A stretch of 64,000 nucleotides of DNA. It comes from Macrostomum hystrix. Lineage: Eukaryota > Animalia > Platyhelminthes. Positions within the stretch are counted from its first letter, which is position 1. Every line of letters starts with the position of its first letter. Positions 1-62,967 of this stretch are shown piece by piece. The position numbers and the translations under genes were made by a program. The stretch lies in the NCBI GenBank assembly GCA_950097015.1, contig CATNEN010000038.1, positions 28,458,001 to 28,522,000 on the forward strand, written 5' to 3'. The notes under the pieces were generated by a model. That model was not told the DNA's origin, made no database searches, and saw only the letters and a program-made list of their open reading frames with translations.

Positions 1-3000
1 CAATACACGGGACTCCCACAAGCTGTCCGAGAAGACTACGGACAGGTGAGAACACAACTCCGAGAGCTGTATGACACCAGAGCGATGGACCGACCCACGG
101 CAGTACTCCAACTCTCCATGAGGAGGATGCACCCAGGAGAGGATGTTAACAAGTTCATCGCCGACATCACACAACTAGTCGAGAACTCAGTGTTCCAAGA
201 ACCAGCGCCGGAGGGTGAGAATGAGAACGACAGAGGCGCAAGAATCAACCGCAACAAACGCATAGTCCAAGACCACATCATGCTGCACGTACAACAGAAT
301 GCCACACCGGCATTGCGACTATATCTAGCCAGAGGACGTTACCAGACAGTACCGGAGATGGTGCGTGAAGCACTTCAATGGCAAGCACTGCGAGAGCTGG
401 AACACGACTCCAACGACGTACACAAACTGACAGCCATGGTAGCCCAGATGGAGACCACGATCAGGCAAGCGGGTAAGCACTTCCAGGAGCGAGGCCAACA
501 GCCACAGAAGGAAGATGCAACTAAGTACCCAGATGGCAATCCGAGGCCAACCTGCCAGATCTGCGACAAGATAGGCCACACAGCCAACAGGTGCTACCAA
601 AGGAACCAGAACACCGGTAACCGGAATATCGGTAAGAGTACCGGGGGCCAAGTGCAGTCACGGGGCAGACAAGATCGAAGTAACGTTAAATGCAACAAAT
701 GCGGAAAGAGAGGCCACTTTGCAAAAGAGTGCAGAGACCAGCGATATTGCAAGAACTGCAATATGCAGAACCATTGGACATCGGAATGCGGCAGACCACG
801 CCAGGGTGATCAAGGACGGCATCCGCAGCAATGGCAGCAGCCAAAGCGGATCGCCGAAGTCACGGTCCAGGACCCCAGTCCGCAGCCAGCCCAACTGGCG
901 AGTGAGTCTAGCCAGACAGCACACATCTTGGCAGTCAGCACGTGGGAAGCGACAACGCCGACAAGGACAAGAAGCGACGTCATACAAGCAAGACGACAGA
1001 ACAGGAAGAACAAGACGGCGACAATCGCCCTAGTTCAGACCGCTCCACAGCTCGAAGGACGAAAGCGAGAGCAGAGGGCTAGAAAGGCTAGTGATGGCTG
1101 GAAGGCACCAGCCGGACCGATATGCGCACTCCTGCTAAAAATACTACTCCTCGCATTGCTCTGTACCACGGCGGAGACGATAAACCCAAGACACCAGAAC
1201 TGGGTGGACACACCGATGTACTGCCCGGAGCCCTCCAGGCCACAGATCTTCAAGCTGCCACCGGACATCGAGTGCAAGATGCCTAGCAGCATACAGCAGC
1301 ACCGACAGCCGATCAACCTGGCAATCTTTAGACCAAACCAGGTCACTCACCGATCAACACTCAAGATCTGTTACCGAGAAACGTATGTCTTCACCAGCGT
1401 AGCATTAAAAACGATTGCCGCTAAAGTGGTAAGACCAGAAATGACTGTTACGGTCCAGAAACATCTAGTTTCAGAGGAAGATTGTGAGTCCTGGGAGGAA
1501 GGTTACCGAACTCCAGATGGCATCCTTGAAGAAGATGGGAAAGCCCCGAACAAAGCTGAACGTTTCACTACTCACATCTGGACAACAGAGGAATTCGACC
1601 CAACGGCTAGTACCCAAACTAGATATACGAAATCCGCGTCCACGCTGATAACGAAAATTCCGTTCTTCGTGGAGAATAAGAAAATGTCATCGCTGTATAT
1701 CCCACTAGGACATTGCAATTACACCATAGGAAAATGTCTTCACGAGTCCACTCTACAGGCCGAGAAGGATGCGCCGCTGGAGAGACAAGTACCCAATAAA
1801 TTATGGGAAGCTCTGAGATACTACGACACACAATTCAAGGTCGCTGGAGAACGCCAGTACAGATATGCCTGGACACCCAGCGCCGCAATTGACTGCCCGT
1901 ACCAGGAAGACAGGCGAATTGAAGGAACCATACACACAGGATGGTTCATGTCCAAGGACGCTACCTACGCTTTGACTTTTAAACACCCACCACACTCAAT
2001 GGAGCTGAAATGCGGAGGAACGACAACTAAACTATTCAGGTCAGAACAAGGAAAGTTGGTTAAACTAGAAGGATCTGAAGCAGAATTCTTATCGATAGTA
2101 CAAGGCAATTTTAATAACTCTAGCACAGTAAAGAGGGCAAAGAGAGACTTGGTATCACAGGAAACTCTAGCAGTGAAACTACAGAGCGTTGAACTTACAA
2201 TGGAAAACAGAATTGGTGATCTGACTCGTCATGTAATCCTTCAACAATGCCGACTCCAACAGACCATTTTTAGATACATTAAGGACTTCATAAGGATGCA
2301 ACCAACACTAGCGGTGAGGACACTGTTCAAAGACAAGCACCTCAAGGCCAGAACAATAGCCCAGCATGTCGTAATCTTCAAATGCATCCCAGTGACCGAC
2401 TTCGAATTCCATCAACCATACTGGAATCAAAGCCGATGTTTCTCCAAACCTCCGTTGAAGTACAAAGTAGCGGAGACCAACCGTACAGGATTCTTGAATG
2501 TAAGAACTATGGAAATTGAGACAGAATACCCCACCTTTCAGGAATGTTCGAATCAAACTGGGTACCTTCTACCCAAAGAGGACAGAGTGTACAAGGCCGA
2601 CTTAAATTTCACCAACTTCGAACCTATACAGATAAGGAAATTGAAGAGCGAAGATTGGGGAATAGAGCCTATGAAATTACCGAAGATCAAACGAATTCTT
2701 TTTATACCAGAAACAGACATCAAAATAGAAGACATCCGAAGCCCGATTACGGTACACGATCTGTACACGCAGATGAGGGACCAGAGAGAATTTCTGAGAA
2801 CAGTATTCAAACTACCAAAGCAGAAGAATCCAGAAACGATCGACCTCCCACCATTGGAGGCAAACATAGCTCTTAAAACTTATGACTTCGCATCTTGGAC
2901 GCCATGGATAGGTATAAAACTCAATATTTTCAACATAACAGTTGGATTTGCCGCAATTTGTGTATATGTGTACATCATGCTCAAAACTATAATAGTTTGT

Positions 3001-6000
3001 CACAGGCTCCTCCGGCAAAAATACGAGCGACCAGGCATCCGAGCAATTCAAAGACGGATAAAGGCAACACAAGAACGACACGAATTGCGGGGACAACCCA
3101 GCACGGACACTAACTACAGACACACGGGCCCACGCCGCCCAGCACCAGAGGCACCAGCCACAAATAAGGAACAGCATCAACCGATGATTCCGTCTGCTCC
3201 ACTGGCTTCATCAATCTATCCGACGATCAGCTCATGGCCACCGCCGATAGTGGCAGCAATTACGAACGGCCAGAAATACAAGGTGACGCGACTGAAGATA
3301 GGCACGCGAGTCTGCAGAGCGCTGATAGATAGCGGAGCAGAGAGGTCGCTGATAGACGAAGTGACGGCGCGCCGATACAGTGACAGCTTCGAGAAGCCGA
3401 CAACAGAGCTACAAGGAGTACACGGAGGAAAGCTCACGCAATCCGGAATGATCACGTTACCAGTCGAAGCAGGAGACACAATCGTCAACGTTAAGTTTCA
3501 TGTCATTCCGAATTTGAGTTCGGGGAGATACCATGCACTATTAGGAATTGATTACTTAAGTCAGTTGCAGAAGGGCATGTCTATCAATTACCAACAGCAA
3601 CAGATGCAGTTAAATGGCAGATCGTATGAAATCATGACAGTCGCCGCCCAAGAAGCCACAAATAAGATCAGACTAGTTTCCGTGGTAAACCTGAATCCAT
3701 GGGAAACAGCTCAAATTACAGCTAGAACCGACTCAAAGGAGGAATTGCCTGACACGGTACTTTTCGAGCCAGACAGGAGTATCATCGAGAAGAAGGCGAT
3801 AGGTCTGACTCAGGAGATAGTTCATCCGGACGAGAAGGGAGAGATACACGTTCTCATATCTAACGAATCAGCCAGACCTATCACTCTGTACCCGGATACA
3901 GCCATAGGTTCGTATGAGACAGAGATAGAGACATATGAAATAGCGGCGAATCAGGAACAGGCATCGGCAATGACAGAGACAGAATTTAGAGAAGCGATTA
4001 ATCTGCAGGGAGCCGAGATAACAGCAGAGCAGAAAGAACAACTAAGAGAGATCCTCTGGGAGAACAAGGAAGCATTTTGTCTCTCAGATGAGGAGATAGG
4101 CTTTACAGAAATAGCGAAACACGAACTCCACATAAAACCGAATGTGGAAGTGAAGCTGAATAAGAGATATCCGATTCCACACCAGCTTACAGGAGAACTG
4201 AAGAAGGTGATAGACAGAATGGAGATGCAGGGGATTCTCATGAAAGCACCGACACCGTATATTTCACCAATTCTCCTCGTTAAGAAAAAATCGGAGTTGC
4301 CAGACGCCAAACCGGTGTATCGCCTGTGCGTGGACTTCAGGGACTTAAACCGATTGTTGATCCCCGAGAGACAGTGTATGCCCAGAATTCCAGATCTGCT
4401 GGCCAAACTCAAAGGATCAAAGTACTTCACGACTCTAGACATGGCCCAGGCATTCTTTCAAGTGGCCCTGCACGAGGACAGTAGAAAGTACTGCGGGATT
4501 TCTACACCAGACGGAGAAACGTTAGTCTTCTTAAGGGCGCCGATGGGATTACAGTCGAGCCCTGCCGCTTTGTCTAGGGCTGCCAGCATCATCCTCAAAG
4601 GCATCGAGAGAGTCTCTACATACGTGGACGATTTGCTAGTATTCACGGAAACGTTCGAGCACCACCTCCAGACACTCAAAAGTACCTTGGAAGCCTTGAA
4701 AAAGCACGGATTAAAGCTGAAACTCCAGAAATGTCGATTCGCGCAACCCAGCATTACCTTCCTGGGACACAAGATCGACCAGAACGGTATCCAGATAGAT
4801 CGCACTCTAGTGGACAAGGTACAGAAGGTAACCAAACCTGATAATGTGACTCAGTTAAGAGCATTCCTCGGACTGTGCAATTTTTTTAGGAAGCATGTCC
4901 CACATTATGCTAAGAAAGTACAACCGCTAACGGATATGCTCAAAGGGGCACCGACCTCAAAAGGACAAGCAACGAAGACCAACCTAAAGTGGACCGAGGA
5001 AGCGGACTACACTTTCGAGGCCATGAAGAAATGGATAGCCGAGGATCTCAGGCTAGCACATCCGGATTTCAACAAACAGTTCATAGTCTCGAGTGACGCC
5101 TCAACTAAAGGAATAGGAGCGATGCTTTCGCAGAAAGATGAGATGGGACGGGAGAGACCGATAGCATTCACGAGTAGACAACTCAGAGATGCAGAAACGA
5201 GGTACGGAATCACTCATCTCGAACTTCTAGCAGTCTACCATGCATTCAGAAACTTCGAACAGTTCTTATACGCCGCTCCCATACCTACACTACTGAGAGT
5301 AGATCACGCCCCACTCAGAGGCTTACTCACAGGCAGAATACTGCAGAACAACCAAATTTTGCGTTGGTTACTATACTTACAGCAATTTCAGATACAGATC
5401 GAATATGTACCTGGAGCATCAGTCACGCATGCAGTACCGGACGCACTCTCGAGATTATACGACGAGAAACCAATGGAACAAATCAATTATGTCACAATAT
5501 CACATCCAATCCCACACCTACAAGCACTCAAGGACGCCCAGGCGGAAGACCCGTTCTGCCAACAAATCCGAGCAATGTGGAACGGAGAATCCGCAGTAGA
5601 ATCACTGGCTCCGAAGTACAGACGCCACATCGATAGACACCTGGCGGACTACGCGGAGATTGGAGGAGTTCTACACAGAACAGCGGATCAAACACAGCAG
5701 ATCATCCTACCGTTTCAGTATCGTGAGACCATTTGCCACTCACTACACGCATTGCCATTAGCGGCACATCTAGGATTCGAGAAAACCTTGGAGAGAATCC
5801 GTAGACACTACTTTTGGATCACCATGGTATCCGACATCCGAGGATTCAGTAACAACTGCATAGAGTGCGCCAGGAATAAATCAGGAAAAACCCATAAGGG
5901 ACTGATTCAGTTTTCAGAGATCCCAATGCGACCAATGGACAAATTGTCGGTTGACATAGTGGGTCCAATGGTGCCCACTAAAGTGAGAAATGAAACAGTA

Positions 6001-6942
6001 ACACACATTCTCACAATCCTTTGTTGTTTTTCGAAATTCGCATTCGCCATTCCGATCCCAGATCTTACAGCTGAAACGACGGCAGAGACACTATTCACTG
6101 TGTTTTGTACCTTTGGGATCCCGATTGAGATGTCCACGGACAATGGAAAGAACTTCACAGCAACTCTACTAGCCGAAGCATTAGAAATCCTGGGGATCAA
6201 ACACATCTTGACATCCCCATACAACCCTCGAGCGAACCATGTGGAACGACTGCATTCGACACTCCACAACATGTTACGCCACTACACAGCCGAGAATCCG
6301 GACCAGTGGCACAAGTACCTGCAGGCAACGATGTTCGCCTACAACACAGCAAAGCAAGCATCATCGACATACTCGCCATTCGAGTTAGTTTTCGCCCGAC
6401 GACCTCTGATGCCTACTCAACTTACTACCCAGTTGAACGTGGTAAAGTACATGGATGAACCATCATTCGCATCTAGAATGAAAGAAGCTGTAACACTAGC
6501 CAGAGAGATAGCGAGACACCACCTACAGGTCGCACAAGAGAAGAATACCGGAAAAGCAAATGAAAACCGCAAACCGACTACACTGGAAGTAGGGAGTAGA
6601 GTTATGTTGCAAATTCCTATGAGACAGGGAAAGCACCAAGCTAAATTTACAGGACCCTATGAGATTGTGAAGAGGAGCAGCCAGACTTCAGTCACAATCC
6701 GGAAAATCGACGATCCAAATCAGGAGTCCTTTCAAGTGCACACCGACAGGCTGAAACCAATGGCCACGTCAACACCACATGTGATGCTTCCGGACCTCAG
6801 ACCGAGCGACCCACAGCGTCACCAGCGACAGCCAAGGCAGCGATTCACCAAGGAAGTGAGCGTGCAGGCAGAGGAGCTGGACGCGCAGGATGACACAGCT
6901 CGGAAGAAGTACAATCTGAGGAGCAAAGTGAAACTTCCTTGA
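1..6942 (+). CDS. Single Gag-Env-Pol polyprotein (>2313 aa, 5'-truncated by the window; frame is open from base 1, so GTG at 46 is not the real start)
   Basis: CX2CX4HX4C knuckles at 553-594, 691-732, 748-789; hydrophobic signal 1120-1173; gB-like ectodomain; TM 2926-3000; protease LIDSGA (DSG 3328-3336); RT YRLCVDFRDLN, LDMAQAFFQ, PMGL, YVDD (4621-4632); RNase H SDAS (5092-5103), ELLAV, VDH; integrase HX6H..CIEC, SVD, TDNG, VER, GPY (6652). Confidence 0.95.
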   Translation, partial: QYTGLPQAVREDYGQVRTQLRELYDTRAMDRPTAVLQLSMRRMHPGEDVNKFIADITQLVENSVFQEPAPEGENENDRGARINRNKRIVQDHIMLHVQQNATPALRLYLARGRYQTVPEMVREALQWQALRELEHDSNDVHKLTAMVAQMETTIRQAGKHFQERGQQPQKEDATKYPDGNPRPTCQICDKIGHTANRCYQRNQNTGNRNIGKSTGGQVQSRGRQDRSNVKCNKCGKRGHFAKECRDQRYCKNCNMQNHWTSECGRPRQGDQGRHPQQWQQPKRIAEVTVQDPSPQPAQLASESSQTAHILAVSTWEATTPTRTRSDVIQARRQNRKNKTATIALVQTAPQLEGRKREQRARKASDGWKAPAGPICALLLKILLLALLCTTAETINPRHQNWVDTPMYCPEPSRPQIFKLPPDIECKMPSSIQQHRQPINLAIFRPNQVTHRSTLKICYRETYVFTSVALKTIAAKVVRPEMTVTVQKHLVSEEDCESWEEGYRTPDGILEEDGKAPNKAERFTTHIWTTEEFDPTASTQTRYTKSASTLITKIPFFVENKKMSSLYIPLGHCNYTIGKCLHESTLQAEKDAPLERQVPNKLWEALRYYDTQFKVAGERQYRYAWTPSAAIDCPYQEDRRIEGTIHTGWFMSKDATYALTFKHPPHSMELKCGGTTTKLFRSEQGKLVKLEGSEAEFLSIVQGNFNNSSTVKRAKRDLVSQETLAVKLQSVELTMENRIGDLTRHVILQQCRLQQTIFRYIKDFIRMQPTLAVRTLFKDKHLKARTIAQHVVIFKCIPVTDFEFHQPYWNQSRCFSKPPLKYKVAETNRTGFLNVRTMEIETEYPTFQECSNQTGYLLPKEDRVYKADLNFTNFEPIQIRKLKSEDWGIEPMKLPKIKRILFIPETDIKIEDIRSPITVHDLYTQMRDQREFLRTVFKLPKQKNPETIDLPPLEANIALKTYDFASWTPWIGIKLNIFNITVGFAAICVYVYIMLKTIIVCHRLLRQKYERPGIRAIQRRIKATQERHELRGQPSTDTNYRHTGPRRPAPEAPATNKEQHQPMIPSAPLASSIYPTISSWPPPIVAAITNGQKYKVTRLKIGTRVCRALIDSGAERSLIDEVTARRYSDSFEKPTTELQGVHGGKLTQSGMITLPVEAGDTIVNVKFHVIPNLSSGRYHALLGIDYLSQLQKGMSINYQQQQMQLNGRSYEIMTVAAQEATNKIRLVSVVNLNPWETAQITARTDSKEELPDTVLFEPDRSIIEKKAIGLTQEIVHPDEKGEIHVLISNESARPITLYPDTAIGSYETEIETYEIAANQEQASAMTETEFREAINLQGAEITAEQKEQLREILWENKEAFCLSDEEIGFTEIAKHELHIKPNVEVKLNKRYPIPHQLTGELKKVIDRMEMQGILMKAPTPYISPILLVKKKSELPDAKPVYRLCVDFRDLNRLLIPERQCMPRIPDLLAKLKGSKYFTTLDMAQAFFQVALHEDSRKYCGISTPDGETLVFLRAPMGLQSSPAALSRAASIILKGIERVSTYVDDLLVFTETFEHHLQTLKSTLEALKKHGLKLKLQKCRFAQPSITFLGHKIDQNGIQIDRTLVDKVQKVTKPDNVTQLRAFLGLCNFFRKHVPHYAKKVQPLTDMLKGAPTSKGQATKTNLKWTEEADYTFEAMKKWIAEDLRLAHPDFNKQFIVSSDASTKGIGAMLSQKDEMGRERPIAFTSRQLRDAETRYGITHLELLAVYHAFRNFEQFLYAAPIPTLLRVDHAPLRGLLTGRILQNNQILRWLLYLQQFQIQIEYVPGASVTHAVPDALSRLYDEKPMEQINYVTISHPIPHLQALKDAQAEDPFCQQIRAMWNGESAVESLAPKYRRHIDRHLADYAEIGGVLHRTADQTQQIILPFQYRETICHSLHALPLAAHLGFEKTLERIRRHYFWITMVSDIRGFSNNCIECARNKSGKTHKGLIQFSEIPMRPMDKLSVDIVGPMVPTKVRNETVTHILTILCCFSKFAFAIPIPDLTAETTAETLFTVFCTFGIPIEMSTDNGKNFTATLLAEALEILGIKHILTSPYNPRANHVERLHSTLHNMLRHYTAENPDQWHKYLQATMFAYNTAKQASSTYSPFELVFARRPLMPTQLTTQLNVVKYMDEPSFASRMKEAVTLAREIARHHLQVAQEKNTGKANENRKPTTLEVGSRVMLQIPMRQGKHQAKFTGPYEIVKRSSQTSVTIRKIDDPNQESFQVHTDRLKPMATSTPHVMLPDLRPSDPQRHQRQPRQRFTKEVSVQAEELDAQDDTARKKYNLRSKVKLP
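1120..3000 (+). other. Envelope domain inside the polyprotein: class III (herpesvirus gB-like) fusion glycoprotein
   Basis: Signal ICALLLKILLLALLCTTA; Cys-rich ectodomain with N-glycosylation sequons (NYT, NNS, NQS, NRT, NQT, NFT); furin site KRAKR (2131-2145); QCRLQ..MQPTLAVRTLF..LKARTIAQHVVIFKCIPV..CFSKP resembles the gB motif WCELQ..LNPNAIAS..VSARMLGDVMAVSTCVPV..CYSRP (recalled, aligned by eye); TM IFNITVGFAAICVYVYIMLKTIIVC. Confidence 0.8.
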
Positions 6943-7109
6943 CATTTGAAGTCAAGGAAGGGAGGAAGTAGACGGACAATTTTACATTTTAACTATTTAT
7001 TACCTTGCGGGTGTGCGCTCTGATATTTAGAATTATATATTTTGCACTACTCGTAAGTAGCCACTATTTAATCACTCACAAATATTTAACCCACCCTTCG
7101 GATGATCAG

Positions 7110-7874
7110 ATGTATTCGACGGAGCTAGACACAGTGGATGATTGCACCATCGACGAGCCGCTTACGACCTACACACTGGTCAAGCCACTGTTTCCATCGG
7201 CAGGACTAAGCCCGGCAGTCGGGAAGGAGATGAACATTAGGAACAGCGCCGCCACGGAACAGCAACGGCGACATCTCCAAGCCCAATGGGAGATCAGAAG
7301 ATCCAGAGACGGTCTGCCGCAGTGTCCAACAGTGCTGAGAGAGAGACACAGACGGGAAGAAAAAGACCTATCATTTACGGAGCTGTACGACTTCATGGAT
7401 AGACAGCCCATCCAGAGCAAGCCTAATCGGCACGGTGAGATGAAACTATTTGACATTCACCTGGACATGCTGGATGCGCCACGAATCCCAGCTAACGTAG
7501 TAACACATCTGACCACAAAGCGCATCCTAGCTGAGGACAATAACCCCATCTGGCTCCTCTCTGACTATAACATTCTACGTAACCGTACAACAATTTTCTT
7601 TCACTATGGAGAACAAGACGCCTTTACTTGCGTCATAATTAAGGCACTCTGCCGTACGCTATCCGTCAACCTGATCCACCCTTGGGGCCCGCAGCCTAAT
7701 GTGATATGTACTAAGTTATTTAATTACTTGTCCAATGCGTTGGTTTATCATGGAATTCAAAGTAGTTGCCGCGAAATGAAGATGCTAGTAATTCGAACGT
7801 ATTCGCCGGCGTTGCTACAGTGGCCACAGCTAAAGGCGGCACTGGAAGCCTCGCAAGAGCCTACTCGTCAGTAA
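7110..7874 (+). CDS. Accessory ORF2 of the LTR element (254 aa from first ATG); C-terminal half resembles a degenerate integrase core
   Basis: Long ORF with element-like composition between pol stop and PPT; motifs IHLD..VVTHLTTKRILA..FTCVIIKALCRTLSVNLI. Confidence 0.6.
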   Translation: MYSTELDTVDDCTIDEPLTTYTLVKPLFPSAGLSPAVGKEMNIRNSAATEQQRRHLQAQWEIRRSRDGLPQCPTVLRERHRREEKDLSFTELYDFMDRQPIQSKPNRHGEMKLFDIHLDMLDAPRIPANVVTHLTTKRILAEDNNPIWLLSDYNILRNRTTIFFHYGEQDAFTCVIIKALCRTLSVNLIHPWGPQPNVICTKLFNYLSNALVYHGIQSSCREMKMLVIRTYSPALLQWPQLKAALEASQEPTRQ

Positions 7875-8426
7875 GAATGTAGGGACGTGAATGTAAGGGC
7901 ATAAGGAGACACGAGAGCTGAGACACTGACACAATGTTAAGACAGATGGGTCGTCTCGACCGGAAGTCCTATCATTGTGACACTCTCACTCAGGTGCAAT
8001 CCTGAGGCTAGAACCAGTTTCACGGAAAGAACTTTGGGAAAGCGCCTCGCTACCTGAAGCATCAGACCAGTGAACTAGGGGAAGCCAGGCCCGTCACTCA
8101 AATTGAATCTAAGCTTAAAAAAACAAAGACAAGGCTTCACCGAATTCCATGATGAGGCACACGTATTTATTATAAGCCAATTCATTATTTATTCCGACAC
8201 ATTTGTGCACTACGACACGTACCAGCACCAGCAAATCACAACTTACAAACAAACAAGGAAAGAAAAACACACAAAAATAATGGAAACATACGTGCCAATA
8301 TCAATGATTATACAACAGCAAATAAGAGAGCAGTTCAACAGAGCAAATTAACAGCACACCATGAATAGTCATAAGAACATAGAACATAAAGAACATAGTC
8401 ATAAGAACATAAGAACTTGACAACAG

Positions 8427-8669
8427 TTAAGGGGCCATAGGAGCGGCCTGGCGCCGCCGGCAACAAAGCCACACCAGAAGCAGCCCGAACAAGGCCAGGG
8501 CAAGGCCTCCGGCCCCGAGACCTCCGGAGAGACGACGTAGAAACGACAACCCGTTCTCTAAAGACTGGGTGCGGGTAGCTTCTAGGGCCAGGCGGGCCTC
8601 CAGGCGAAGGACCCGAGCCTCCAGCTCGGACATCAGCTCGGCGAGTTGGGCCATTTCAAAACGCGACAT
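8427..8669 (-). CDS. Antisense small membrane protein (80 aa): coiled coil, Gly-rich TM, CC-RRR
   Basis: GC-rich ORF island in AT-rich surroundings; heptad LAELMSELEARVLRLEARL; TM GGLGAGGLALALFGLLLVWL then CCRRR; minus-strand TATATAAA at 8751-8758 and AATAAA at ~8166-8171. Confidence 0.6.
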   Translation of the reverse strand: MSRFEMAQLAELMSELEARVLRLEARLALEATRTQSLENGLSFLRRLSGGLGAGGLALALFGLLLVWLCCRRRQAAPMAP

Positions 8670-9390
8670 GAAATCAAGTGGTCGATGAGGCAGACGAAAA
8701 GGCAGTTAAAAAGATGCGTCTGAGCAGATAAAAGGGGCCCAGGGGAAAAGTTTATATAACCAGTACAAGGCAAGATGGAGGGCAAGTATTCAACAATCAC
8801 AGCCCCCCTATCCGCCGCGGAGAAAGGACCCCAATGTACATCCCGAGAGATGAAAAGTAGAGTCATCAGTGCCCCGGGCCAGAATCGAGACCTAAAGTGC
8901 AACACCACACAGATAACATGCCCGAGTGGATTAGACCAACCATGGCCTCAGTAAACAAAAATAGGACACAGGCAACAAACACACCATAACCAAGAATTCA
9001 GCTTGTCACAAGTAAGAGAGACACAGCCAGATCAGAATACATCATAACCACATGCCATAGTACTTTAACCAATGTGATTTTATAATGCAAGCAATGCTCT
9101 GATCCGGCGAGGCCCAGAAATGTTATTGATTAATTGGGCTCTCAAAGCATATATATATTCTCTCCAACGTGATTAACAATAAATATTATGTAGACTTCTT
9201 TGGAAGCCCCACAGGTTCATTGTCTGTCTAACTAACTTTCAATTAAATCTTAGACGTCATCAATAATAGATAAAACAGCAGCAATAAGCATGTCAGAGAG
9301 AAATTAGGAGGACATTCAGGAAAATAAGCTGAGGGATGCAGTACATGTATAGGAAAATGACAAGTCTCGGACACTTTCACAGCAAGTACC

Positions 9391-9720
9391 ATGGCCGATG
9401 AGGATTACAACCGCCGCCCAGGAGAAAAATTTGTCGATATTAACATCCGAGGACGGCCGGTGGTGAAGGTCGATGCGGTCACGCAGGTGACCGAAGAAGA
9501 CATCGACGGTGGCATAACAACCGCCACGTCCACGGCTGACCTCCAGGAGCCTTACCTGGAAGACCTCTATGCCACTAGGCAAGCACAAGGTACCTGGGAG
9601 GCCCAGGGCAACTATCAGCCCGAGCCGAAAACCAAACATCAGCCATGGCCAACACCGAGAGGCCTCCGAAAATACTATCGGGAAAAGTACCCGGAACCGC
9701 CAAAGGATGAACAATTTTAA
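9391..9720 (+). CDS. Accessory ORF3 (109 aa, acidic/Pro-rich, unknown function)
   Basis: ATG in strong context (ACCATGG); GC-rich coding-like island flanked by AT-rich spacers just upstream of the PPT. Confidence 0.45.
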   Translation: MADEDYNRRPGEKFVDINIRGRPVVKVDAVTQVTEEDIDGGITTATSTADLQEPYLEDLYATRQAQGTWEAQGNYQPEPKTKHQPWPTPRGLRKYYREKYPEPPKDEQF

Positions 9721-9952
9721 TGATTCCCTATTAATTAACTTAACACTAAAACCACGCATACTCACACCATATTATTCACTATTTACAACAATGCTTAAAC
9801 GAATGAATTATACACTTACCCATTTACCCTCCTAATCCAATACTTTCAGATTTCAATGTCTTATATGTTCACAGACCTACTAGCAGTAGGCAGATTGACA
9901 ATCCGAAGAAGGCAATAGGCTGCATCTCCCTTGACCAGTCAAGGATTTCTTC

Positions 9953-9962
9953 AAAAGGGGGA
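9953..9962 (+). other. Polypurine tract (plus-strand primer)
   Basis: AAAAGGGGGA immediately followed by TG. Confidence 0.75.
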
Positions 9963-10993
9963 TGATATAAGACTTAGAAATCTGAAGGGAATTTAAGAGT
10001 TCGTCAGCGGGAAGCGAAAGCAAAAAATAGCAACAGCAGAAAGTGCGAGCAACCGAAAGGAGAATGATTAGACAAAATCCGCCCCCCAGAGATTAACTAT
10101 TCATTTCAGCGCAGGCCCGGTTCGGCATGACAGCAGCTGTGCCGACGTGGAGCTGGCTGAGACCGGATCCGCAGAGGCGCCGACGTGGAGCTGCCGGAGA
10201 CCGGATCCGCAGCTGTGCTGACGTGGAATGGCCCGAGACCGGAACGCAGCTGCGCTGACGTGGAGCTCCCGGAATCAACCCGGCCTACCCCGACCTGCAG
10301 CTGCCTGCATCGACCCAGCCCAGTCTGAAATTGGAGCCGCCCGGACCCGATCGGGAACGAGATCTGGAGGAGGCCGGAACCGCACAAGAAGACTGGATCG
10401 ATGAAGGGAAAGGGGATAATGAACAGTAGGAAAGAGGTCTCAGTAGAATTGGGAACGCATCCTAACTCAACTAAGGTATTTTCAGGACTTTTCCCCACCT
10501 CCCATAGAAAATGGGTTGGCGTGCCTGCTAACCAACTAGTTTAATGACAACAACTGTACTAGACTCGAGGCTGCGACCTCACTCACCCCAAATTCTCATG
10601 CGTACTGTTGCTATGGTATTTTCTTCCCCTCGGATCGAGGGTTTTAAAGACATTATATATATTGGTGCGGAGCGCGGAAAAAGATTCGCCGCTCCAGTTA
10701 GTTAGAGACTCACTTTGAGCTCCGTTTAGAAAATCATTGTGTTTGCGTTCTTTCTTAAGTAGAATCAGTGATAACGATCTAGAGATATCACCACTGCCAG
10801 CCGGTATACTGAGTATCGATAGTCGTTAGGAGTTATAGCCTTCAAGACTTTTAGACTGCAATAAACCGCTAGACAAAGTATAGGAAAACTACGAGTGAAG
10901 AAGAAGAGGAACACCAAACTTGAAGCGCTATAGAGTCGAAGGCCTTTAGAAAGTCTACGAAGATTCAGATGACCGTCGACTAGTCTCTTCTCA
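9963..10993 (+). repeat. 3' LTR (~1.03 kb)
   Basis: Imperfect inverted termini TGATATAAGAC / GTCTCTTCTCA; TATA-like TATATATAT ~10655; AATAAA 10860-10865; internal GC-rich repeats 10135-10270. 5' LTR and TSD cannot be checked in this window. Confidence 0.72.
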
Positions 10994-12200
10994 AATGCGG
11001 CGCAAAGCGAGAATCTGGTTCACCGTGCCCCTATCTGGCCAGAAGCCGTTTTGCTCTCGCCGGAGGAACGGGTCCAACACAGGTTGCAGCCGCGTCAGCA
11101 GTACCCTGTTGTACAGCTTCGCGGCGCAGGACATTAGAGATATTCCGCGACGTTCTTCAACCTTGATAGTTCCGGGCTTCATCGGGATCCCGACGATGTG
11201 CGCCGTCCGACATTCAGCGGGGGCGGGACCTCCCGCCAGCACGCAGTTCATCACTTGCGTGACTTCTTGCGCCACCAGCGGGAGGCGCAACACTTCGACA
11301 GACGCGTCGTCAGGTCCGGTGGCTTTGCTTCTTAGCGAGCAGAAGCACCTCGTCAAAGGTGATAGTGATAGGACTGGTGTTGAAAGAACTTTCTTCTGGC
11401 AGTGCGACCTCCGCGGGCAGAGACATGTTGTCTCTTGGCGCCGGCGGAGACGCGTTAACGATGCCAGAGAAAAAGGCTCTCAGTTCGTTTCGCCTCTTTT
11501 CGGGTGTGTCCCCAGACAGGTTCAGCGTACTGCGCCGTTTACGGCCTGTCAATTGGTTTACTACAGACCAAACGGCACGGGGCTAATTCTTGTCGGGCCC
11601 GGCATCGGTAATTTCTTGGATTGCGGCCTCAACAGCGGCGCGTTGCCGGGCCTTAAAAAACTCTGCTAAGGCCATCTAAGCTTCCTACGCAGGCTGTCCG
11701 CTCCTCGCCAGTCTTTCCACAATTTGCCGGGCCTGTCGCAGCGCCTCGTCGTTTTGCCGCACAGGCTGACCGCTTGCTACTGGTTTCACCAGAGGCAGCG
11801 TTTTAGTAGCGGCATCGTTTTAGTCCGAGTATTTGACAGGTGCTGCTGGTTCCGGTCGTTTATCCAGCGCGTCAGCAAAGGCCAGGCAGAAACGGTCTCT
11901 TGTGTTTGGGTCGCGCAAGGCGCGGAAAAAGCGTTTTGGCTGCTGCTTCGGTGGTCGGTATAGTGGGTCCCCTAGGCGCAGGTCACAGTAAAGCTATGGT
12001 CAGACCGAATTGCCAAAGGTGCTACCGTGTCGCAGTTGACTTCACGGCGCCGTTCTCTCCAGCGGATTAGTGCCTCGTCGGTGTTGTTGTTTTCGCGTGG
12101 GGTGACAAAGAGAGCTCGTTTAGACTTTCGCATAAGCGTTGAGGTCCACGCTTCCAAGCACAAGCACCGAGTCACGCTGAGCAACCGCCGAGAGGAACTC
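10994..12200 (-). pseudogene. Decayed non-LTR retrotransposon (LINE, RTE/CR1-like) ORF2 fragment: end of APE endonuclease to start of RT, frameshifted and interrupted by the LTR element
   Basis: RSDH endonuclease end motif (~12000); KATGPD..RGISLMSCAAKLYNRVLLTRL..REQNGFWPDRGTVNQI RT N-terminal motifs split over frames. Confidence 0.85.
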
Positions 12201-12921
12201 CAGAAATTGACGGTGCTCCATCGGGTGCGCAGCTGTGGGTGCATATAGCACAGAATAAGTGAATATTACGGGTGCGATATTTTTTCAAGAAGATGAAGCT
12301 GTCTGGCATTATCCCGCTGCAATGGGCACTGACGCATGATTGATGAAAGTTTTCCATTAATAGATGATCGGTCTGTCCCATCTCCGTTCTCACTCTGGGG
12401 TGCACATGCGCGCCGTAAGAAGGACACGATGTAGTAGCTCGTGCATCTGCCAATAACTTTTATTTGTCAGGCCGTGTGCACTCTAAGTGTGGCTGTGGGT
12501 TCTCAAGGGGGTAAAGGCAACTAACTTCTCTCTGAGGCAGCACACACATTAAAAACTTGGGCCATCGGCTCGGATTCGAGCGAACAGGAACCTTGGTGCA
12601 AATGTGTTTCAAATTTTGCCACTCACCTCTAAAAGGAATATTACCAACATGATGTGCTTCATACATTTCGCAAGGTTTAAGATTGTTTAAAGACCCTGTC
12701 TGTTTTACACAACGTGTACTATTTGTTATATTTATCCGCCTCAACTAGAGATTTAGAAACGTTACTTAAATAATTAATATGCATAGATGATAAGCGCTAT
12801 AAAAAATATGCAGCTCATATACATTGTGAGTCGATATTAACGTTAAATTTCTCATTTTCATTCATTCTTAGTTGCTTCTAAATTGCTTTGTTCTCACAGC
12901 TTCCATTTTTCAATAATATCC

Positions 12922-14280: not shown

Positions 14281-14638
14281 TCACGCGCCCTCTCTGCCAG
14301 CAGTGCAGCTGCAGCACAGCGACCTTAGGCCAGACAGTCTGCCCAGGCCTCGCTGGCGTTCTCTGCCAGCTGACTTCAATTCGCCTATCTGTAGCTTAAC
14401 TTGCTGCCGTTTAACAGCAGCGATCAGCAAATCGTAGAATGCCTTCTGCACATTGTCCATTGTCAGGGCGGACGCTTCCAAGTAGGTCATGCTATAGTGT
14501 CTAGCGAATGTGTCAGCCTCAATATTGGATATGAGCCGACGGTCAGCCAAGTCAGATTTGTTGCCAACCAGAGCATAGTCAATGTGCTGGCAAAGTTCGA
14601 CGCTTTTAGCTTTCATCTTTGCCGACTCCTGAACTACT

Positions 14639-14673
<35 letters not shown>

Positions 14674-14826
14674 TTGACATTGGCTACAATTCGATAGGCG
14701 CCGAATGCGATCTAGCCAGACTGGCAACTGTTGAAATGACTCGAAATTGTCCAGAGCAAAGACGAGCATGACTGCATGAACGTCGGCGTAAAAGTCTGCC
14801 AATTGGTCACGCTCATGCAGTTTCTC
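14281..14826 (-). CDS. Divergent Rab-like small GTPase, exon 2
   Basis: AG acceptor 14828-14827 gives in-frame EKLHERDQLADFYADVHAVMLVF; LVGNKSD (G4), YLEASA (G5); poly-Q insert; LCCSC near C-terminus. Confidence 0.85.
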
Positions 14827-15309
14827 CTGCGCAGTTTAGTTTTTAGAAATGTCAAATTAATACGTAATAAACATTCTTTTAGTGGTCCGCCTGACCTTAC
14901 GAATGTGATTCAATCTACTGACATACTATCTACAGTATGTCCTTAGTGGGAGAGTGGGAGAGGGATACGGCGATAGGGAAAGAGGAATGGGAATAGGAAT
15001 AGGTGTGAATAGCACGAGATTCAGGCACAGTAGGGTAGAAAGGGAGGCAAACAGCCGGAGGTGGATAGGGGAGAAACTGAAAGAATGGAGGGAGAGGGGA
15101 GTGGGATGAAAGGAGAAGAAGAAGGCGAGGGGAATAGGGAGAAAGAGAGAGGAAGAGGTGGAGTTAAATAGTCCCGAATAGAGAGAAAGGGAGAGGAGGG
15201 GAGAGGAAGAGGATGAGGAAGAGAGAGAGGAAGAGGAGAGGAAGAGAGGGAAGAAAAAAGGAGAAAGAGAGATGAAGATTGGTAGGGGAATCTGGAGAAC
15301 GGGAGAGGA

Positions 15310-15640
15310 ATAGGGGAGATGGAATGGGGAGAAAGAAAGAGGAGGGGAGATGGAATGGGGAGAAAGAAAGAGGAGGGGGATGGAATGGGGAGAAAGAAAG
15401 AGGAGGGGAGATGGAATGGGGAGAAAGAAAGAGGAGGGGAGATGGAATGGGGAGAAAGAAAGAGGAGGGGAGATGGAATGGGGAGAAAGAAAGAGGAGGG
15501 GGATGGAATGGGGAGAAAGAAAGAGGAGGGGAGATGGAATGGGGAGAAAGAAAGAGGAGGGGAGATGGAATGGGGAGAAAGAAAGAGGAGGGGAGATGGA
15601 ATGGGGAGAAAGAAAGAGGAGGGGAGATGGAATGGGGAGG
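15310..15640. repeat. 31-bp purine-rich minisatellite in Rab intron (within a purine-rich tract ~15060-15830)
   Basis: (GGGGAGATGGAATGGGGAGAAAGAAAGAGGA)n, ~10 copies. Confidence 0.9.
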
Positions 15641-15907
15641 AAATAAAGACAAAGAGAGGAGGGAAAGGGGAGAAAGGGAGAAGAAGGGAGAAGAAGGGAG
15701 AGGAGGAGAGGGGAAAGGAGAAGAGAGAAGGAGAAAATGAGAGTAAGAGTAGGCGAGAGATGAAAGGGAGAGGGAATAAAGGGAGGGAAAAAGGGGAAGG
15801 GAAAGGCGAGGGGATAAAGACAGACGAAGTGGATGTAAGACTGAGACTAGATTTGACCATCGACTAGAGTACAAAAAGTGGACATAACTCTCAGTATTGA
15901 TACACAC

Positions 15908-16246
15908 CATGCCGCCCATGTCCCAAATTCTGACGTGAACTCTTCTGCCGTCAATGTCGACTATGAAGTGATGAAAATCGCCAGGCAGCGTCTGTTTCAG
16001 ATGCTCGATGCTGGCTTCGGCTCTGGCGAATCTACTAACCAAACTAGTCTTGCCAACTAGGCTAGAACCAACTAGCAATAGCTTCAACTTCAGCTCGGCT
16101 TTACAATTTAGCCGATGTTCCATTAGTTGCAGTTCCACGTTTTTCTCTTTCTTCTGTTTCCTTTGTTTAGGCTCCGATTGGCCATGTCGCTGGTCGATGT
16201 CTATGCGCTGTTCTGCTTGTTCTTCTATGGGCAGTTGCGCAGACAT
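15908..16246 (-). CDS. Divergent Rab-like small GTPase, exon 1
   Basis: KLLLVGSSLVGKTSL (G1), TLPGDF (G2 region), IWDMGGM (G3); GT donor at 15907, phase 0. Confidence 0.85.
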
Positions 16247-17803
16247 CTGTTAAATTTGCTGCTTGTTTTTTCTTGTTAGTCGAAGACGCTCTTTTGACGA
16301 ACGACGATTAAACAAAAAACCAACCTTGGCCAACTTAGAATGCAACGCTTAAAACGCGCCTTTTCTCTTCTTAAGTAAGCTTTTGGTCTCTGCCTTATAA
16401 TTATTGTTCTAGGCAGCCCTCTAGCCCTCTTACCCCCCTATCTTACCCCCGCCGTCCGTCCTGACCCACCACCCCATTTTCACACCCCAATCGCAAGCGG
16501 TCCGCTGCATGCCTAGTCTCGACAGCTCAAAATAGCAAGGACTGACCAAATGTACATTCTAAAGTTCCCCCTGCTGATTTCCCATTCAATATAAATACGT
16601 TTCATAAACTAACTGCACACTTCTCTGAATGTACTTACTGAACTCTGAACTCGTAAAGTCTGTACAATAGAAATAGGATAAGCCCAGAAAGTTCCTTTTT
16701 AGAACAGCGTGAGTAGTAATAACAAAAAATTCTAGTTTTCCGAGAATTGCAACTTAATTGTCGATTTTTTTTGGTTTATGTATAACATAAACGCGTTTTA
16801 TAAACATTCTGTGTTTAGAAAGTCCGAAACTTTTAACCATAGACTTTGATTAATTAAACGGCGTTTATTTAGATTATATAAAATCTGTTTGCCATTAAAT
16901 TAAATGATTTAATGAGCTCGTCGTGCAGACTGTTTGAACCATAGACAATATATTGCATGCCTAGAAGAAGCCCATTGAACGTCTAATACATAAGCCAGTC
17001 GGGTTTTATATCCATTCGGCAATCGCTGGTGCAAAAGTGAGTGCAAGAACATCCATAATAAGTTATTGTGTGCATTTAATCACACGCCAAAATCTTTGGA
17101 AAAGACAGTGCGAGACTGCATATGAGTTTTCTTGATATTAATGTTATATCTGGTCGAGGACTTTCGACCATAGAACCGAAATTCGGCGGGTATTATAAAA
17201 CTTGACCGTTTGAAATACAGCTAAAGTTTTCATTAAGAAAGACATAGAAAAGCTTCATTTAATTGGCCTCGTTTTCAGGCCTGCTATATCATGCATATTA
17301 TTGGCAACTTTTTAGTCACGATAATAAGACAGACCATGGACAAAAAATGGAGACTTTCTACAGTACAGTAAGTAAAGGACTATATATACGCAACATAACT
17401 AGTGTTTCTGAAGTTCAATGTTGTTATAATAAGTTTCAATTCATCAATGTGGTAGAATAATTATTTTGCTTTTGCAATTGAATAGTTTTTTACCATAGAC
17501 AGCAAGATTTGACAATTTTAAATGCGTGCGACCCTTCTGTGCAAGATTGGTCGAAGGACTAACGTGTAAAATGTGTAAATATAAACGTGTAAAATGTAGC
17601 ATATTTTATTATGGCTGAATAATAGAAATCAATGTGTTCCATGATCGCGCTTTAATTGGACTATTTGACAGCAGAAAAGGTCTCAACATTTTTTCAACGT
17701 TTTCTATACACAACATTAGAACTGGAAAGCAATCTAAAACACTATTCTCATGAATATTGGAATGCAGTATGACTCGAAAACTAGCGTTAGAATGCAATGG
17801 AAG

Positions 17804-19096: not shown

Positions 19097-19719
19097 AATG
19101 GAAGCAACTCTAACAAGATGTATATGACTCTGGTGACATCTCTTAATACATGTACGAGATCGTATACGAAACATGTGTTGAAATTTAAATACTTGAAATT
19201 TTCTGGCAATAAGTGTCTATCAATCAAACTATTTAAAACTGAATTCAAGGATGGGTAAGACTAGACTCACCTTAGACAGGAGAAAACGCTTTTCAAAACA
19301 CATATAGGCTCAGGACTTGCTCTTCAAAACCGAAAAAACTAAACTCATACAGTCGCTTCCCTGTCTCTAAGTTGAAAGACACTTCAGAAGTTGAGTACCG
19401 CGAGAATAAAACTCATCCAGGACAGTGTGAAACTCTTCAGACTTCGACATGAGGGACAGTTGCGACTGCGTTTGTCGCATCAGGATATGTTTTATATCAA
19501 TTGACAGACTTGACAAACGTTGAAATTGCCTTAAGTTAATTGCCCCATCATCTTCATCATCTTCATCAAAATTGACAGTCTTAAAAACTCATCAAGACGC
19601 AGGAGTGGTGCAAATACTTAACAGACAGCGCAGTCAGTCCTGCATGCTACTCTAACAAACAGCTCAACCAACAAAGCTGAACAAAATATTTGAAGGCAAT
19701 GACTGGAAATAATTCTGGC

Positions 19720-20475
19720 ATGAAGTCCGACTCAATCATTGTGGCGTTGCTACTGCAGGTCCTGTTGCACTCGCATCCGTCGTTGTCGCTGTGTCCAGCT
19801 CCGTTCAAACAGGAGGCAGGCAGGTGCGTGTTCGTGAACACTACTCAGAGCTTCACCTGGTGCTCGGCCAATCGGCAGTGCGCATCGATCGGAGGTGAGC
19901 TCATCAACTCGTACAGCTCGCTGCAGCTGCTCAGCAGCATGCCGAGCTTCAACTGCGGCTGCAACATTTGGCTCGGAGTTTCTGACATGGCTGATGAAAA
20001 AAACAAGAGTAGGTCAGGCTGGCAGATCATTCTCGACAAAGGAATTTTACCGCTGAATAACTCATTGTGGCGAAATGGGGACCCGAACAACAATGGCGGC
20101 ATCCAAGACTGCATTGGACAGAACTATGACGCTATTGGAAAGCTCTCTGACAACAGATGTTCTCAGCCTAGGGGGTTTGCGTGCGAGTTGGCTGGATCTG
20201 TCCCGACTGCAACTGGCTCAAGCCACACATGGCTGGCGACTCCTTTCAAGCGCACCAGCTACAATCCGAGCACCGAGTACTGCTACTCTGACATCAGCAA
20301 TGTCCGGAGTGATCTTGAATGCGTCTTTTTTGCTTATAACGAGGGCAACAGCAGGCGCGTGCTGTACAACAGCAGGCTGAGGACTTGTCGCCTGCTGCTG
20401 TTCATCGACGCTCAGGTTGAGGAGGCCATCGAGACGAGCGCTGATTGGGTCAAGTTCGACATCAATACTAGATAA
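19720..20475 (+). CDS. Secreted C-type lectin domain + C-terminal PAN/apple-like domain protein, copy 1 (intronless; alternative ATG at 19699)
   Basis: Signal peptide; CP..F...GRC, TW..A..C..IGGEL, IWLG, W..GDPNN..QDC, LSD..C...FACE; C-terminal S..EC...Y....C.L pattern; AATAAA at ~20635. Confidence 0.88.
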   Translation: MKSDSIIVALLLQVLLHSHPSLSLCPAPFKQEAGRCVFVNTTQSFTWCSANRQCASIGGELINSYSSLQLLSSMPSFNCGCNIWLGVSDMADEKNKSRSGWQIILDKGILPLNNSLWRNGDPNNNGGIQDCIGQNYDAIGKLSDNRCSQPRGFACELAGSVPTATGSSHTWLATPFKRTSYNPSTEYCYSDISNVRSDLECVFFAYNEGNSRRVLYNSRLRTCRLLLFIDAQVEEAIETSADWVKFDINTR

Positions 20476-21746: not shown

Positions 21747-22501
21747 CTAGAATATGCCTAACTTGACCCAGTCAGCGCTTATCTCGATGTCCTCCTCAAC
21801 CTGAGCGTCGGTGAACAGCAGCAGGCGGCAAGTCCTCAGCCTGCTGTTGTACAGCACGCGCCTGCTGTTGCCCTCGTTATAGGCGAAAAATACGCATTCA
21901 AGATCACTCCGGACACTGCTGATGTCAGAGTAGCAGTACTCGGTGCTCGGATTGTAGCTGGTGCGCTTGAAAGGAATCGCCAGCCATGTGTGGCTTGAGC
22001 AAGTTGCAGTCGGGACAGATCTAGCCAACTCGCACGCTAATCCTTGTTGCAGAGTGCACCTGATGTCAGATAGTTTTCCAGGAGGATCATTTTGCTGTCC
22101 AGTGCAGTCCTGCATCATTCCCATGGTGTTTGGTTCCCCATTTCGCCACAATATGTCATTCAGTCGTAAAATTTCTTTGTCGAGAATGAGCTGCCAGCCT
22201 GACCTACTCGTGTTTTTTTCATCAGCCAGGTCAGACACTCCGAGCTAAATGTTGCAGCCGCAGTTGAAGCTCGGCATGCTGCTGAGCAGCTCATGCAGCG
22301 AGCTGTACGAGTTGATGAGCTCACCTCCGATCGATGCGCACTGTCGATTGGCCGAGCACCAGGTGAAGCTCTGAGTATAGTGTTCACGAACACGCACCTG
22401 ACGGCCTCCTGTTTGAACGGAGATGGACACAGTGACAACGACGGATGCGAGAGCAACAGAATCTGCAGTGACAACACCAGCAGGATTGAGACGGTCTTCA
22501 T
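21747..22501 (-). pseudogene. C-type lectin/PAN-like paralogue, copy 2 (pseudogene)
   Basis: Close paralogue of copy 1 with a 2-bp TA insertion at ~22376-22380 and TGG>TAG stop at 22245-22247 in the IWLG motif. Confidence 0.85.
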
Positions 22502-62758: not shown

Positions 62759-62967
62759 CTGAGGAATTGAAAGAATTCAGGCCAATGCTTGAGATACAGC
62801 GCAGTGAATTAGGAGAATTACTGTTAACAAGCAACAGTAACGGAATGCCAAGCCATTGTCAGAGATGAGAGGTCTAAGAAGCTCGACACAGTGTCTGCGA
62901 GAACTTATTTGAAATGAGCAGGATGCGGTTAATAGAGGTCAGGTGACATAAGCCAAAGAGATTTAAA

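What the first reader, a model, noticed from the sequence alone, without database searches (positions are those of the whole stretch)
1174..3000. Envelope looks like a class III gB-type fusogen, not a retroviral or baculovirus-F type Env
Seen: KRAKR followed by a long helix ending QQCRLQQ, then MQPTLAVRTLF..KARTIAQHVVIFKCIPV, CFSKPPLKY, GFL, and C..QTGYL. Known: herpesvirus gB domains III/IV carry WC..Q..NP..V.AR..GDV..V..C.PV, CYSRP, GQL; gB-like glycoproteins also occur in chuviruses and some invertebrate retroelements. The segment looks more T-rich than the flanking gag, consistent with capture from a virus (qualitative impression).
Basis: partly seen in the sequence, partly recalled or inferred. 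Interest (0 to 1): 0.8.

Follow-up and report, generated by a model that had tools for sequence, protein, structure and literature searches.

The report
Retrotransposon with mid-polyprotein gB-like envelope
An intact virus-like jumping gene, likely from a flatworm, encodes its capsid, a protein predicted to fold like the herpesvirus fusion protein gB, and its copying enzymes in one reading frame; this is real but a layout already described in nematodes, bryozoans and flatworms.

Summary
The fold call is right; the capture argument is not. Bases 1174-3003 are the Env part of one stop-free 2,313-codon frame, gag-env-protease-RT-RNase H-integrase, of a Ty3/gypsy element. Env passes Pfam PF24664. 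A 48-row profile hits only herpesvirus gB in the PDB (best E 1.6e-20). The AlphaFold model (pLDDT 80) matches gB (E 1e-20) and, slightly better, nyamivirus-type G models (E 5e-26). T-richness is no capture signal: env 20.0% T, pol 19.8%; gag (12.2%) is the outlier. Env and RT both place it beside a Macrostomum lignano polyprotein (31% and 36% identical), so the pairing is old. Chary & Hayashi (PMC13524379) already report GAG-ENV-POL gB-type elements in nematodes, bryozoans and flatworms, and this scan found the kind twice before on other DNA. This is a new family of a known kind. One oddity: its predicted fusion loops hold 1 aromatic residue against a median of 7 in 27 relatives. Fusion activity is untested.

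The parts
1..6942 (+). Single stop-free ORF (2,313 aa, open at the window's 5' edge): gag-env-PR-RT-RH-IN
1..1107 (+). C-terminal part of Gag with three CCHC knuckles (553-594, 691-732, 748-789) and a basic linker
   Evidence: Pfam zf-CCHC; motif scan
1123..1173 (+). Internal signal-peptide-like hydrophobic stretch; cleavage before 1174 is inferred
   Evidence: hydropathy; a like stretch in 16 of 18 env-bearing relatives examined; no signal-peptide predictor was run
1174..2907 (+). Class III (gB/G-like) Env ectodomain, 12 Cys, 7 N-x-S/T sites
1402..1437 (+). Predicted fusion loop 1 (tip of the first domain-I hairpin): aliphatic and basic, no aromatic residue
   Evidence: model secondary structure; loop counts
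1588..1620 (+). Predicted fusion loop 2: polar, one Phe
2134..2145 (+). Furin-type site RAKR in a disordered loop before the central helix
   Evidence: R-x-K/R-R in 33 of 41 rows covering the site; pLDDT under 50 at model residues 314-327
2158..2298 (+). 47-residue central helix (gB domain III equivalent)
   Evidence: H329-375 in the model; aligns with gB
2341..2628 (+). Beta 'crown' domain (gB domain IV equivalent)
2914..3003 (+). Transmembrane anchor
   Evidence: hydropathy
3004..3270 (+). Pro/Arg-rich cytoplasmic tail running in frame into the protease
   Evidence: a contig of organism B spans 1165-3722 without gaps (X15 record 18)
3286..3573 (+). Aspartyl protease (LIDSGA)
   Evidence: Pfam RVP
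4282..5388 (+). Reverse transcriptase (YVDD) and RNase H
   Evidence: Pfam RVT_1, RT_RNaseH
5713..6759 (+). Integrase (H2C2, core, C-terminal)
7110..7874 (+). Accessory ORF, 254 aa, no family; weak Ulp1/C48-like lead only
8130..9710 (.). Segment replaced or absent in other copies; holds an 80-aa antisense ORF (8427-8669: coiled-coil-like, hydrophobic stretch, basic tail) and a 109-aa sense ORF (9391-9720)
   Evidence: joints; ORFs
9953..10932 (+). Inferred polypurine tract (9953-9962) and 3' LTR (9963-10932); the 5' LTR lies outside the window, so the limits are not confirmed by an LTR pair
   Evidence: sequence; loose ends behind 10932 in X3 and X6; no second copy in the window

Best explanation
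The segment is the envelope part of an intact Ty3/gypsy retrotransposon whose gag, env and pol lie in one reading frame, and it is predicted to fold as a class III fusion protein that likely lets the element's particles enter other cells. Shown: the single frame, the domain order, the hydrophobic stretches on both sides of Env, the RAKR site, and that variant copies differ mostly at silent sites. Predicted: the gB/G-like fold. Inferred: Gag is made in the cytosol; the internal signal threads Env into the ER, where signal peptidase would free its N-terminus; the TM helix stops transfer, so Pol returns to the cytosol joined to the Env tail. Env would trimerise, be cut by a furin-like protease, and carry Pol to the budding site until the element's protease releases it. 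On a target cell, most plausibly the germline as for Drosophila gypsy, Env would refold and fuse membranes. The env-pol pairing is old and inherited with the element, not a recent capture.
For: One ORF with PR-RT-RH-IN order and no BEL/Pao family hit. PF24664 35.1 bits against cut-off 27. Atlas top hit 0.95, PF24664 cluster. Profile against PDB: 46 of 46 matches are herpesvirus gB. Model pLDDT 79.8; all 36 Foldseek PDB rows shown (to rank 50) are gB, E 1e-20 to 4e-18; viral library led by Nyavirus G, E 5e-26. All 12 Cys kept in 21 of 47 relatives, most of the rest being fragments. 13 of 46 Env relatives carry protease and/or RT downstream in the same protein. Sister to P0121 (M. lignano) in env (SH-aLRT 99) and RT (97/98). 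12 of 14 listed env variant sites are silent, against 22-33% expected. Published kind: PMC13524379.
Against: No fusion, processing or particle data exist here. The predicted fusion loops are the poorest in aromatic residues of 28 rows (1 vs median 7). TM-scores to gB are only 0.26-0.39 and pTM is 0.53. A strict 1:1:1 Gag:Env:Pol output is odd for a capsid and no mechanism for excess Gag was found. The variant sites are the 14 env rows among 40 shown of about 1,300. The flatworm host is inferred from one sister sequence at 31-36% identity.
Confidence: 0.8

Rival explanations
1. The Env keeps the class III fold but no longer fuses membranes in this flatworm-associated lineage; it is kept as a membrane anchor, attachment protein or scaffold that brings Gag and Pol together.
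For: The four rows with fewest loop aromatics are the window (1), P0121, P0124 and P0126 (2 each), against a median of 7; three of them form one env clade (99). The element cannot drop env without keeping the frame open to pol.
Against: Furin site, 12 Cys, central helix and crown are all kept. Loop 1 is rich in aliphatic residues. Loop alignment is gappy. An in-frame env deletion would be easy, and none that removes env is among the joints listed.
Confidence: 0.15
2. Env was captured recently from a nyamivirus-like RNA virus or a herpesvirus and still carries the donor's base composition.
For: Best structural matches are viral; T at fourfold sites is higher in env than in pol, p 0.019 uncorrected.
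Against: Total T, T3 and GC3 equal pol. Identity to viral proteins is 16% or less, against 31% to another retroelement Env. Env and RT trees give the same sister. None of the 10 relatives looked up is named as a virus protein.
Confidence: 0.03
3. The in-frame gag-env-pol fusion is an assembly artefact or a one-off dead chimera.
For: No single listed contig spans the whole stretch.
Against: A contig from a second organism spans env into protease with 129 differences and no gap. Seven independent polyproteins have the same order. The frame has no stop in 2,313 codons.
Confidence: 0.01

Closest known systems
GAG-ENV-POL HSV/gB-type Ty3/gypsy 'errantiviruses' of Nematoda, Bryozoa and Platyhelminthes (Chary & Hayashi, eLife 2026, PMC13524379), including Platyhelminthes_Rhabditophora_Mlig_errantivirus_2
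   Same: Ty3/gypsy pol, gB-type Env flanked by signal and TM, env between gag and pol, intact and present as several variant copies.
   Different: Probably not the listed Mlig element: its table row implies about 680 nt from pol stop to 3' LTR and an 864-nt LTR, against about 3,020 nt, accessory ORFs and about 970 nt here. Sequences could not be compared, because no sequence of that element turned up in the supplement searches. The paper calls the fusion loops hydrophobic and highly conserved; here they are aromatic-poor.
Macrostomum lignano polyprotein PAA86625.1 (P0121, 2,852 aa)
   Same: Same order; sister in env and RT trees; also aromatic-poor loops.
   Different: Only 31% (Env N-half), 36% (RT-RH) and 30% (aa 712 onward) identical; it has a Thr-rich insert of about 200 aa before the central helix that the window lacks.
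Nematode non-canonical endogenous retroviruses (Sacco et al. 2022, doi 10.1099/jgv.0.001739; seen only as cited in PMC13524379, content recalled)
   Same: env before pol; recalled as one continuous gag-env-pro-pol ORF with a Nyamiviridae-like glycoprotein. C. tropicalis and Globodera polyproteins are among the Env relatives.
   Different: Separate RT branch: the label needs 3 changes on the tree, although one clade is not rejected (AU p 0.21).
Herpesvirus gB and nyamivirus/chuvirus G (class III fusogens; Pfam PF24664, PF00606)
   Same: Predicted domain layout, Cys pattern of the C-terminal half, long central helix, crown domain.
   Different: 9-16% identity; the ectodomain is embedded in a retroelement polyprotein; no gH/gL-like partner was found in the element.

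Membership tests
Class III viral fusogen (gB/G/gp64 fold) | Sequence-profile relationship to class III proteins | tested here: met
   PF24664 above cut-off; profile hits gB at E 1.6e-20
Class III viral fusogen (gB/G/gp64 fold) | Fold: beta fusion domain, PH-like domain(s), long central helix, beta crown | tested here: met
   Predicted model, pLDDT 79.8; Foldseek prob 1.0 over the whole length to gB and G; TM-scores modest
Class III viral fusogen (gB/G/gp64 fold) | Hydrophobic (usually aromatic) bipartite fusion loops | tested here: inconclusive
   Hairpins present; loop 1 aliphatic, loop 2 polar; 1 aromatic vs median 7
Class III viral fusogen (gB/G/gp64 fold) | Homotrimer around a three-helix core | not tested
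Class III viral fusogen (gB/G/gp64 fold) | Membrane fusion activity | not testable with these tools
   needs an assay
Class I Env (retroviral SU/TM, baculovirus or errantivirus F) | Profile or fold match to F or TM proteins; fusion peptide right after the furin site | tested here: not met
   No such Pfam hit at E up to 1; none among the PDB rows shown; the residues after RAKR are polar. One fragment relative (P0122) has a sub-threshold Baculo_F hit near its C-terminus
Ty3/gypsy (Metaviridae) LTR retrotransposon | pol order PR-RT-RH-IN with gypsy-type profiles, no BEL/Pao profiles | tested here: met
   named GyDB reference clades were not in the trees
Ty3/gypsy (Metaviridae) LTR retrotransposon | Paired LTRs, primer-binding site, target-site duplication | tested here: inconclusive
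   PPT and one inferred LTR; the 5' end is outside the window and no genome is held
GAG-ENV-POL HSV/gB-type errantivirus (Chary & Hayashi, operational term) | Uninterrupted gag, gB-type env and pol in the order gag-env-pol | tested here: met
GAG-ENV-POL HSV/gB-type errantivirus (Chary & Hayashi, operational term) | Assignment to a cysteine-bridge class (C1a-C2c) | not testable with these tools
   The class definitions are in figures that are not held as text

The most novel reading that the evidence does not exclude
A flatworm-associated lineage of gag-env-pol elements keeps a class III envelope under purifying selection although it has lost the aromatic fusion loops. It either fuses membranes by another route (aliphatic loops, or help from the small antisense membrane protein in the swappable 3' segment) or has turned the fusogen into a membrane tether that packages Pol through the Env tail.
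Probability: 0.15. Interest if true: 0.6.

Novelty: new member of a known kind. Interest (0 to 1): 0.25.

Why it matters
It adds an intact, divergent family to the gag-env-pol gB-type elements and supports their long env-pol co-descent. How any of these elements process one Gag-Env-Pol chain across the ER membrane, and whether their Env fuses without gH/gL-like partners, is open (PMC13524379 says the entry mechanism is unknown). A small, intact Env with unusual loops in a probably lab-tractable flatworm group is a usable test case, but the kind itself is not new.

Tried and rejected
Single-sequence searches missed everything: PDB phmmer gave only E 0.62 or worse; word-index searches gave 0 of 3,651 and 0 of 2,337 candidates; metagenome and viral contig scans gave 0 of 54 and 0 of 1 confirmed. 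Single-sequence AlphaFold was useless (pLDDT 30.5). No whole genome is held. No RNA holder was listed; X15 and X17 are only guessed to be RNA, so expression is not shown. Excess Gag by splicing or frameshift: a GTGAGT donor-like site lies at 902, and no slippery heptamer lies between the knuckles and env; no joint at 901 was among those listed, so this is left as a lead. T-richness as a capture signal was rejected. BEL/Pao identity was rejected. Sacco et al. 2022 is not held, and 'gag-env-pro-pol' returned 0 papers. No tRNA gene in the window. Rows dropped: 20 of 48 from the env tree (under 380 of 579 columns); 85 of 125 from the careful RT tree; 20 of 48 from the loop count.

Full report
Observation. 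The segment is not a separate gene: bases 1-6942 form one stop-free frame of 2,313 codons. Pfam gives zinc knuckle, PF24664 Monjiviricetes_fusion (aa 724-856), protease, RT, RNase H and integrase in that order. Hydrophobic stretches flank the Env part at aa 369-394 and 972-1001. The T excess over gag is real (0.200 vs 0.122) but pol is the same as env (0.198, p 0.88), and GC3 does not differ from pol (p 0.45). Only T at fourfold sites is higher in env than in pol (45/230 vs 64/501, p 0.019, one of 12 uncorrected tests). Gag is the compositional outlier, so this is no evidence of capture.

What the Env is. Scanned alone it scores 35.1 bits on PF24664 (cut-off 27), with no retroviral or baculovirus F family at E up to 1. 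ESM Atlas features give 0.95 to a PF24664 cluster, then rhabdovirus G, gp64 and gB clusters; the recognition value was below the tool's usual level, so this is supporting only. An exhaustive search found 46 relatives at E up to 0.001; an RT search added P0046. In the 48-row alignment all 12 ectodomain cysteines are kept in 21 of 47 relatives, most others being fragments. Its profile matches 46 PDB sequences, all herpesvirus gB, best E 1.6e-20, with both the N-terminal and the helix-crown halves aligned. AlphaFold with that alignment gave pLDDT 79.8 and pTM 0.53, with a long beta hairpin domain, a 47-residue helix and a beta crown. Foldseek ranks gB in all 36 PDB rows shown (E 1.1e-20 at best, TM 0.26-0.39). 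Among predicted viral structures the best are Nyavirus midwayense G (5e-26) and Beihai rhabdo-like virus 3 G (1e-25; a nyamivirus by recall), then entomopoxvirus proteins, herpes gB, chu-, xinmo-, borna- and rhabdovirus G, at 9-16% identity. So class III is well supported, 'gB-type' is a fair label, and a herpesvirus donor is not shown.

The element. 13 of the 46 relatives carry protease and/or RT downstream in the same protein. Seven of the 8 other non-redundant Env-bearing proteins with a full RT have the order gag-env-pol; P0037 has env last. The closest relative is a Macrostomum lignano polyprotein, PAA86625.1, 31% identical over the Env N-half and 36% over RT-RH. It is the window's sister in the env tree (28 of 48 rows, SH-aLRT 99) and in RT trees (125 rows, 0.988; 40 rows, 97/98). 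P0154, P0161 and P0163 (two named as nematode) form one RT clade and fall in one 9-row env clade. The gag-env-pol label needs 3 changes on the RT tree, but one clade is not rejected (AU p 0.21). The host is an animal (C-type lectin, Ras-family and PAS genes nearby); flatworm is an inference from the sister sequence. Public runs of two coded organisms hold the stretch (20 runs, 7 studies). Contigs show variants at about 88-100% identity, and one from organism B spans 1165-3722 with 129 differences and no gap. Of the 14 env sites among the 40 best-supported differences shown, 12 are silent, against 22% expected for all changes and 33% for transitions. The element begins at least 1,700 nt before the window (X15 record 17). 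It most likely ends at 10932, where contigs of two runs diverge, after a purine tract at 9953-9962 and a roughly 970-nt LTR, next to a LINE fragment. The LTR is not confirmed by a second copy and ends in TATA, not CA.

How it likely works. Shown: frame, order, hydrophobic anchors, RAKR (a furin-type site is present in 33 of 41 rows). Inferred, by analogy with capsid-signal-glycoprotein polyproteins of other viruses (established knowledge, not tested here): the internal signal translocates Env, signal peptidase frees it from Gag, the TM returns Pol to the cytosol on the Env tail, Env trimers cluster Pol at the budding site, and the element's protease releases it. Entry into neighbouring or germ cells follows the Drosophila gypsy model as summarised in PMC13524379. 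Against this: the predicted fusion-loop tips hold 1 aromatic residue, the lowest of 28 rows (median 7), and the three next-lowest rows include the two closest Env relatives. Loop alignment is gappy and loop 1 is aliphatic, so this lowers but does not remove the fusogen claim. No route to excess Gag was found.

What is known. Chary & Hayashi (PMC13524379; I read the abstract, sections 5 part 1, 6, 9 part 1 and 14, passages, and search rows from supplementary files 1, 2, 4, 5 and 6; figures are not held) report HSV/gB-type Env across metazoan Ty3/gypsy elements. They state that those of Nematoda, Bryozoa and Platyhelminthes are arranged GAG-ENV-POL and are not monophyletic. Their table lists 9 flatworm elements, one from M. 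lignano with 16 copies; its coordinates imply a different 3' layout from this element, and its sequence was not found in the supplements searched, so identity is unlikely but not excluded. Sacco et al. 2022 was seen only as a citation; its content is recalled. PMC10084718 (passages) covers chuvirus glycoproteins beside arthropod retroelements. PMC12801592 (passages) surveys M. lignano LTR families and has no 'glycoprotein' in its main text. PMC2753318 and PMC7642597 were seen as search listings only. Two earlier notes of this scan describe the same kind on other DNA; I had found the paper before reading them, and no note matched this place or sequence.

Verdict. Real, correctly called as class III, and a new family of a published kind. 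Interest 0.25. The boldest reading left open is a lineage whose class III Env works without aromatic fusion loops or has become a tether (probability 0.15, interest 0.6).

Noticed in passing
window 7110-7874 (+): 254-aa ORF between pol and the 3' LTR, with no Pfam hit; ESM Atlas gives only sub-0.9 leads, several to Ulp1/Peptidase_C48 clusters. The 10 listed variant sites are not biased to third positions (3 of 10, counted by hand).
   Followed up: partly
window 8130-9710: Segment skipped or replaced in other copies (joints 8129 to 9711 and 9840, 8128 to 8503, 8531 to 9772). A 29-nt piece at 8503-8531, inside the antisense ORF, is retained in organism B contigs.
   Followed up: partly
window 8427-8669 (-): 80-aa antisense ORF with a coiled-coil-like N-half, one hydrophobic helix and a CCRRR tail; it looks like a small membrane protein; no family above cut-off.
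   Followed up: partly
window 902: Splice-donor-like CGA/GTGAGT between the zinc knuckles and the Env signal; one of two such sites in the ORF; no joint seen there.
   Followed up: partly
window 6953-6969: A second purine-rich tract just after the pol stop codon.
   Followed up: no
window 10133-10283: Four tandem 38-nt repeats inside the inferred LTR, one fewer in organism B contigs; also a 22-nt inverted repeat pair at 9845-9866 and 9965-9986.
   Followed up: no
window 10933-12300 (-): Decayed non-LTR (LINE-like) RT fragment directly after the element's end; the element seems to have inserted into it.
   Followed up: partly
P0121 about aa 1000-1210: Thr/Pro-rich mucin-like insert of about 200 aa before the central helix in the M. 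lignano sister Env, absent here.
   Followed up: no
P0046, P0155, P0037: Relatives with extra features: an RRM domain between gag and env (P0046), a NADAR domain upstream of env (P0155), and a single-ORF gag-pol-env order (P0037).
   Followed up: no
window 19681-20475 (+), 21747-22244 (-), 28613-29458 (-): Three near-identical C-type-lectin gene copies, each in one open frame, among minisatellite arrays; Ras-family exons at 14281-16249 (-) and a PAS-domain, poly-Q frame at 61593-62858 (-).
   Followed up: no
ranks 3, 9, 17, 27: Uncharacterised entomopoxvirus proteins rank among the best structural matches to this Env.
   Followed up: no
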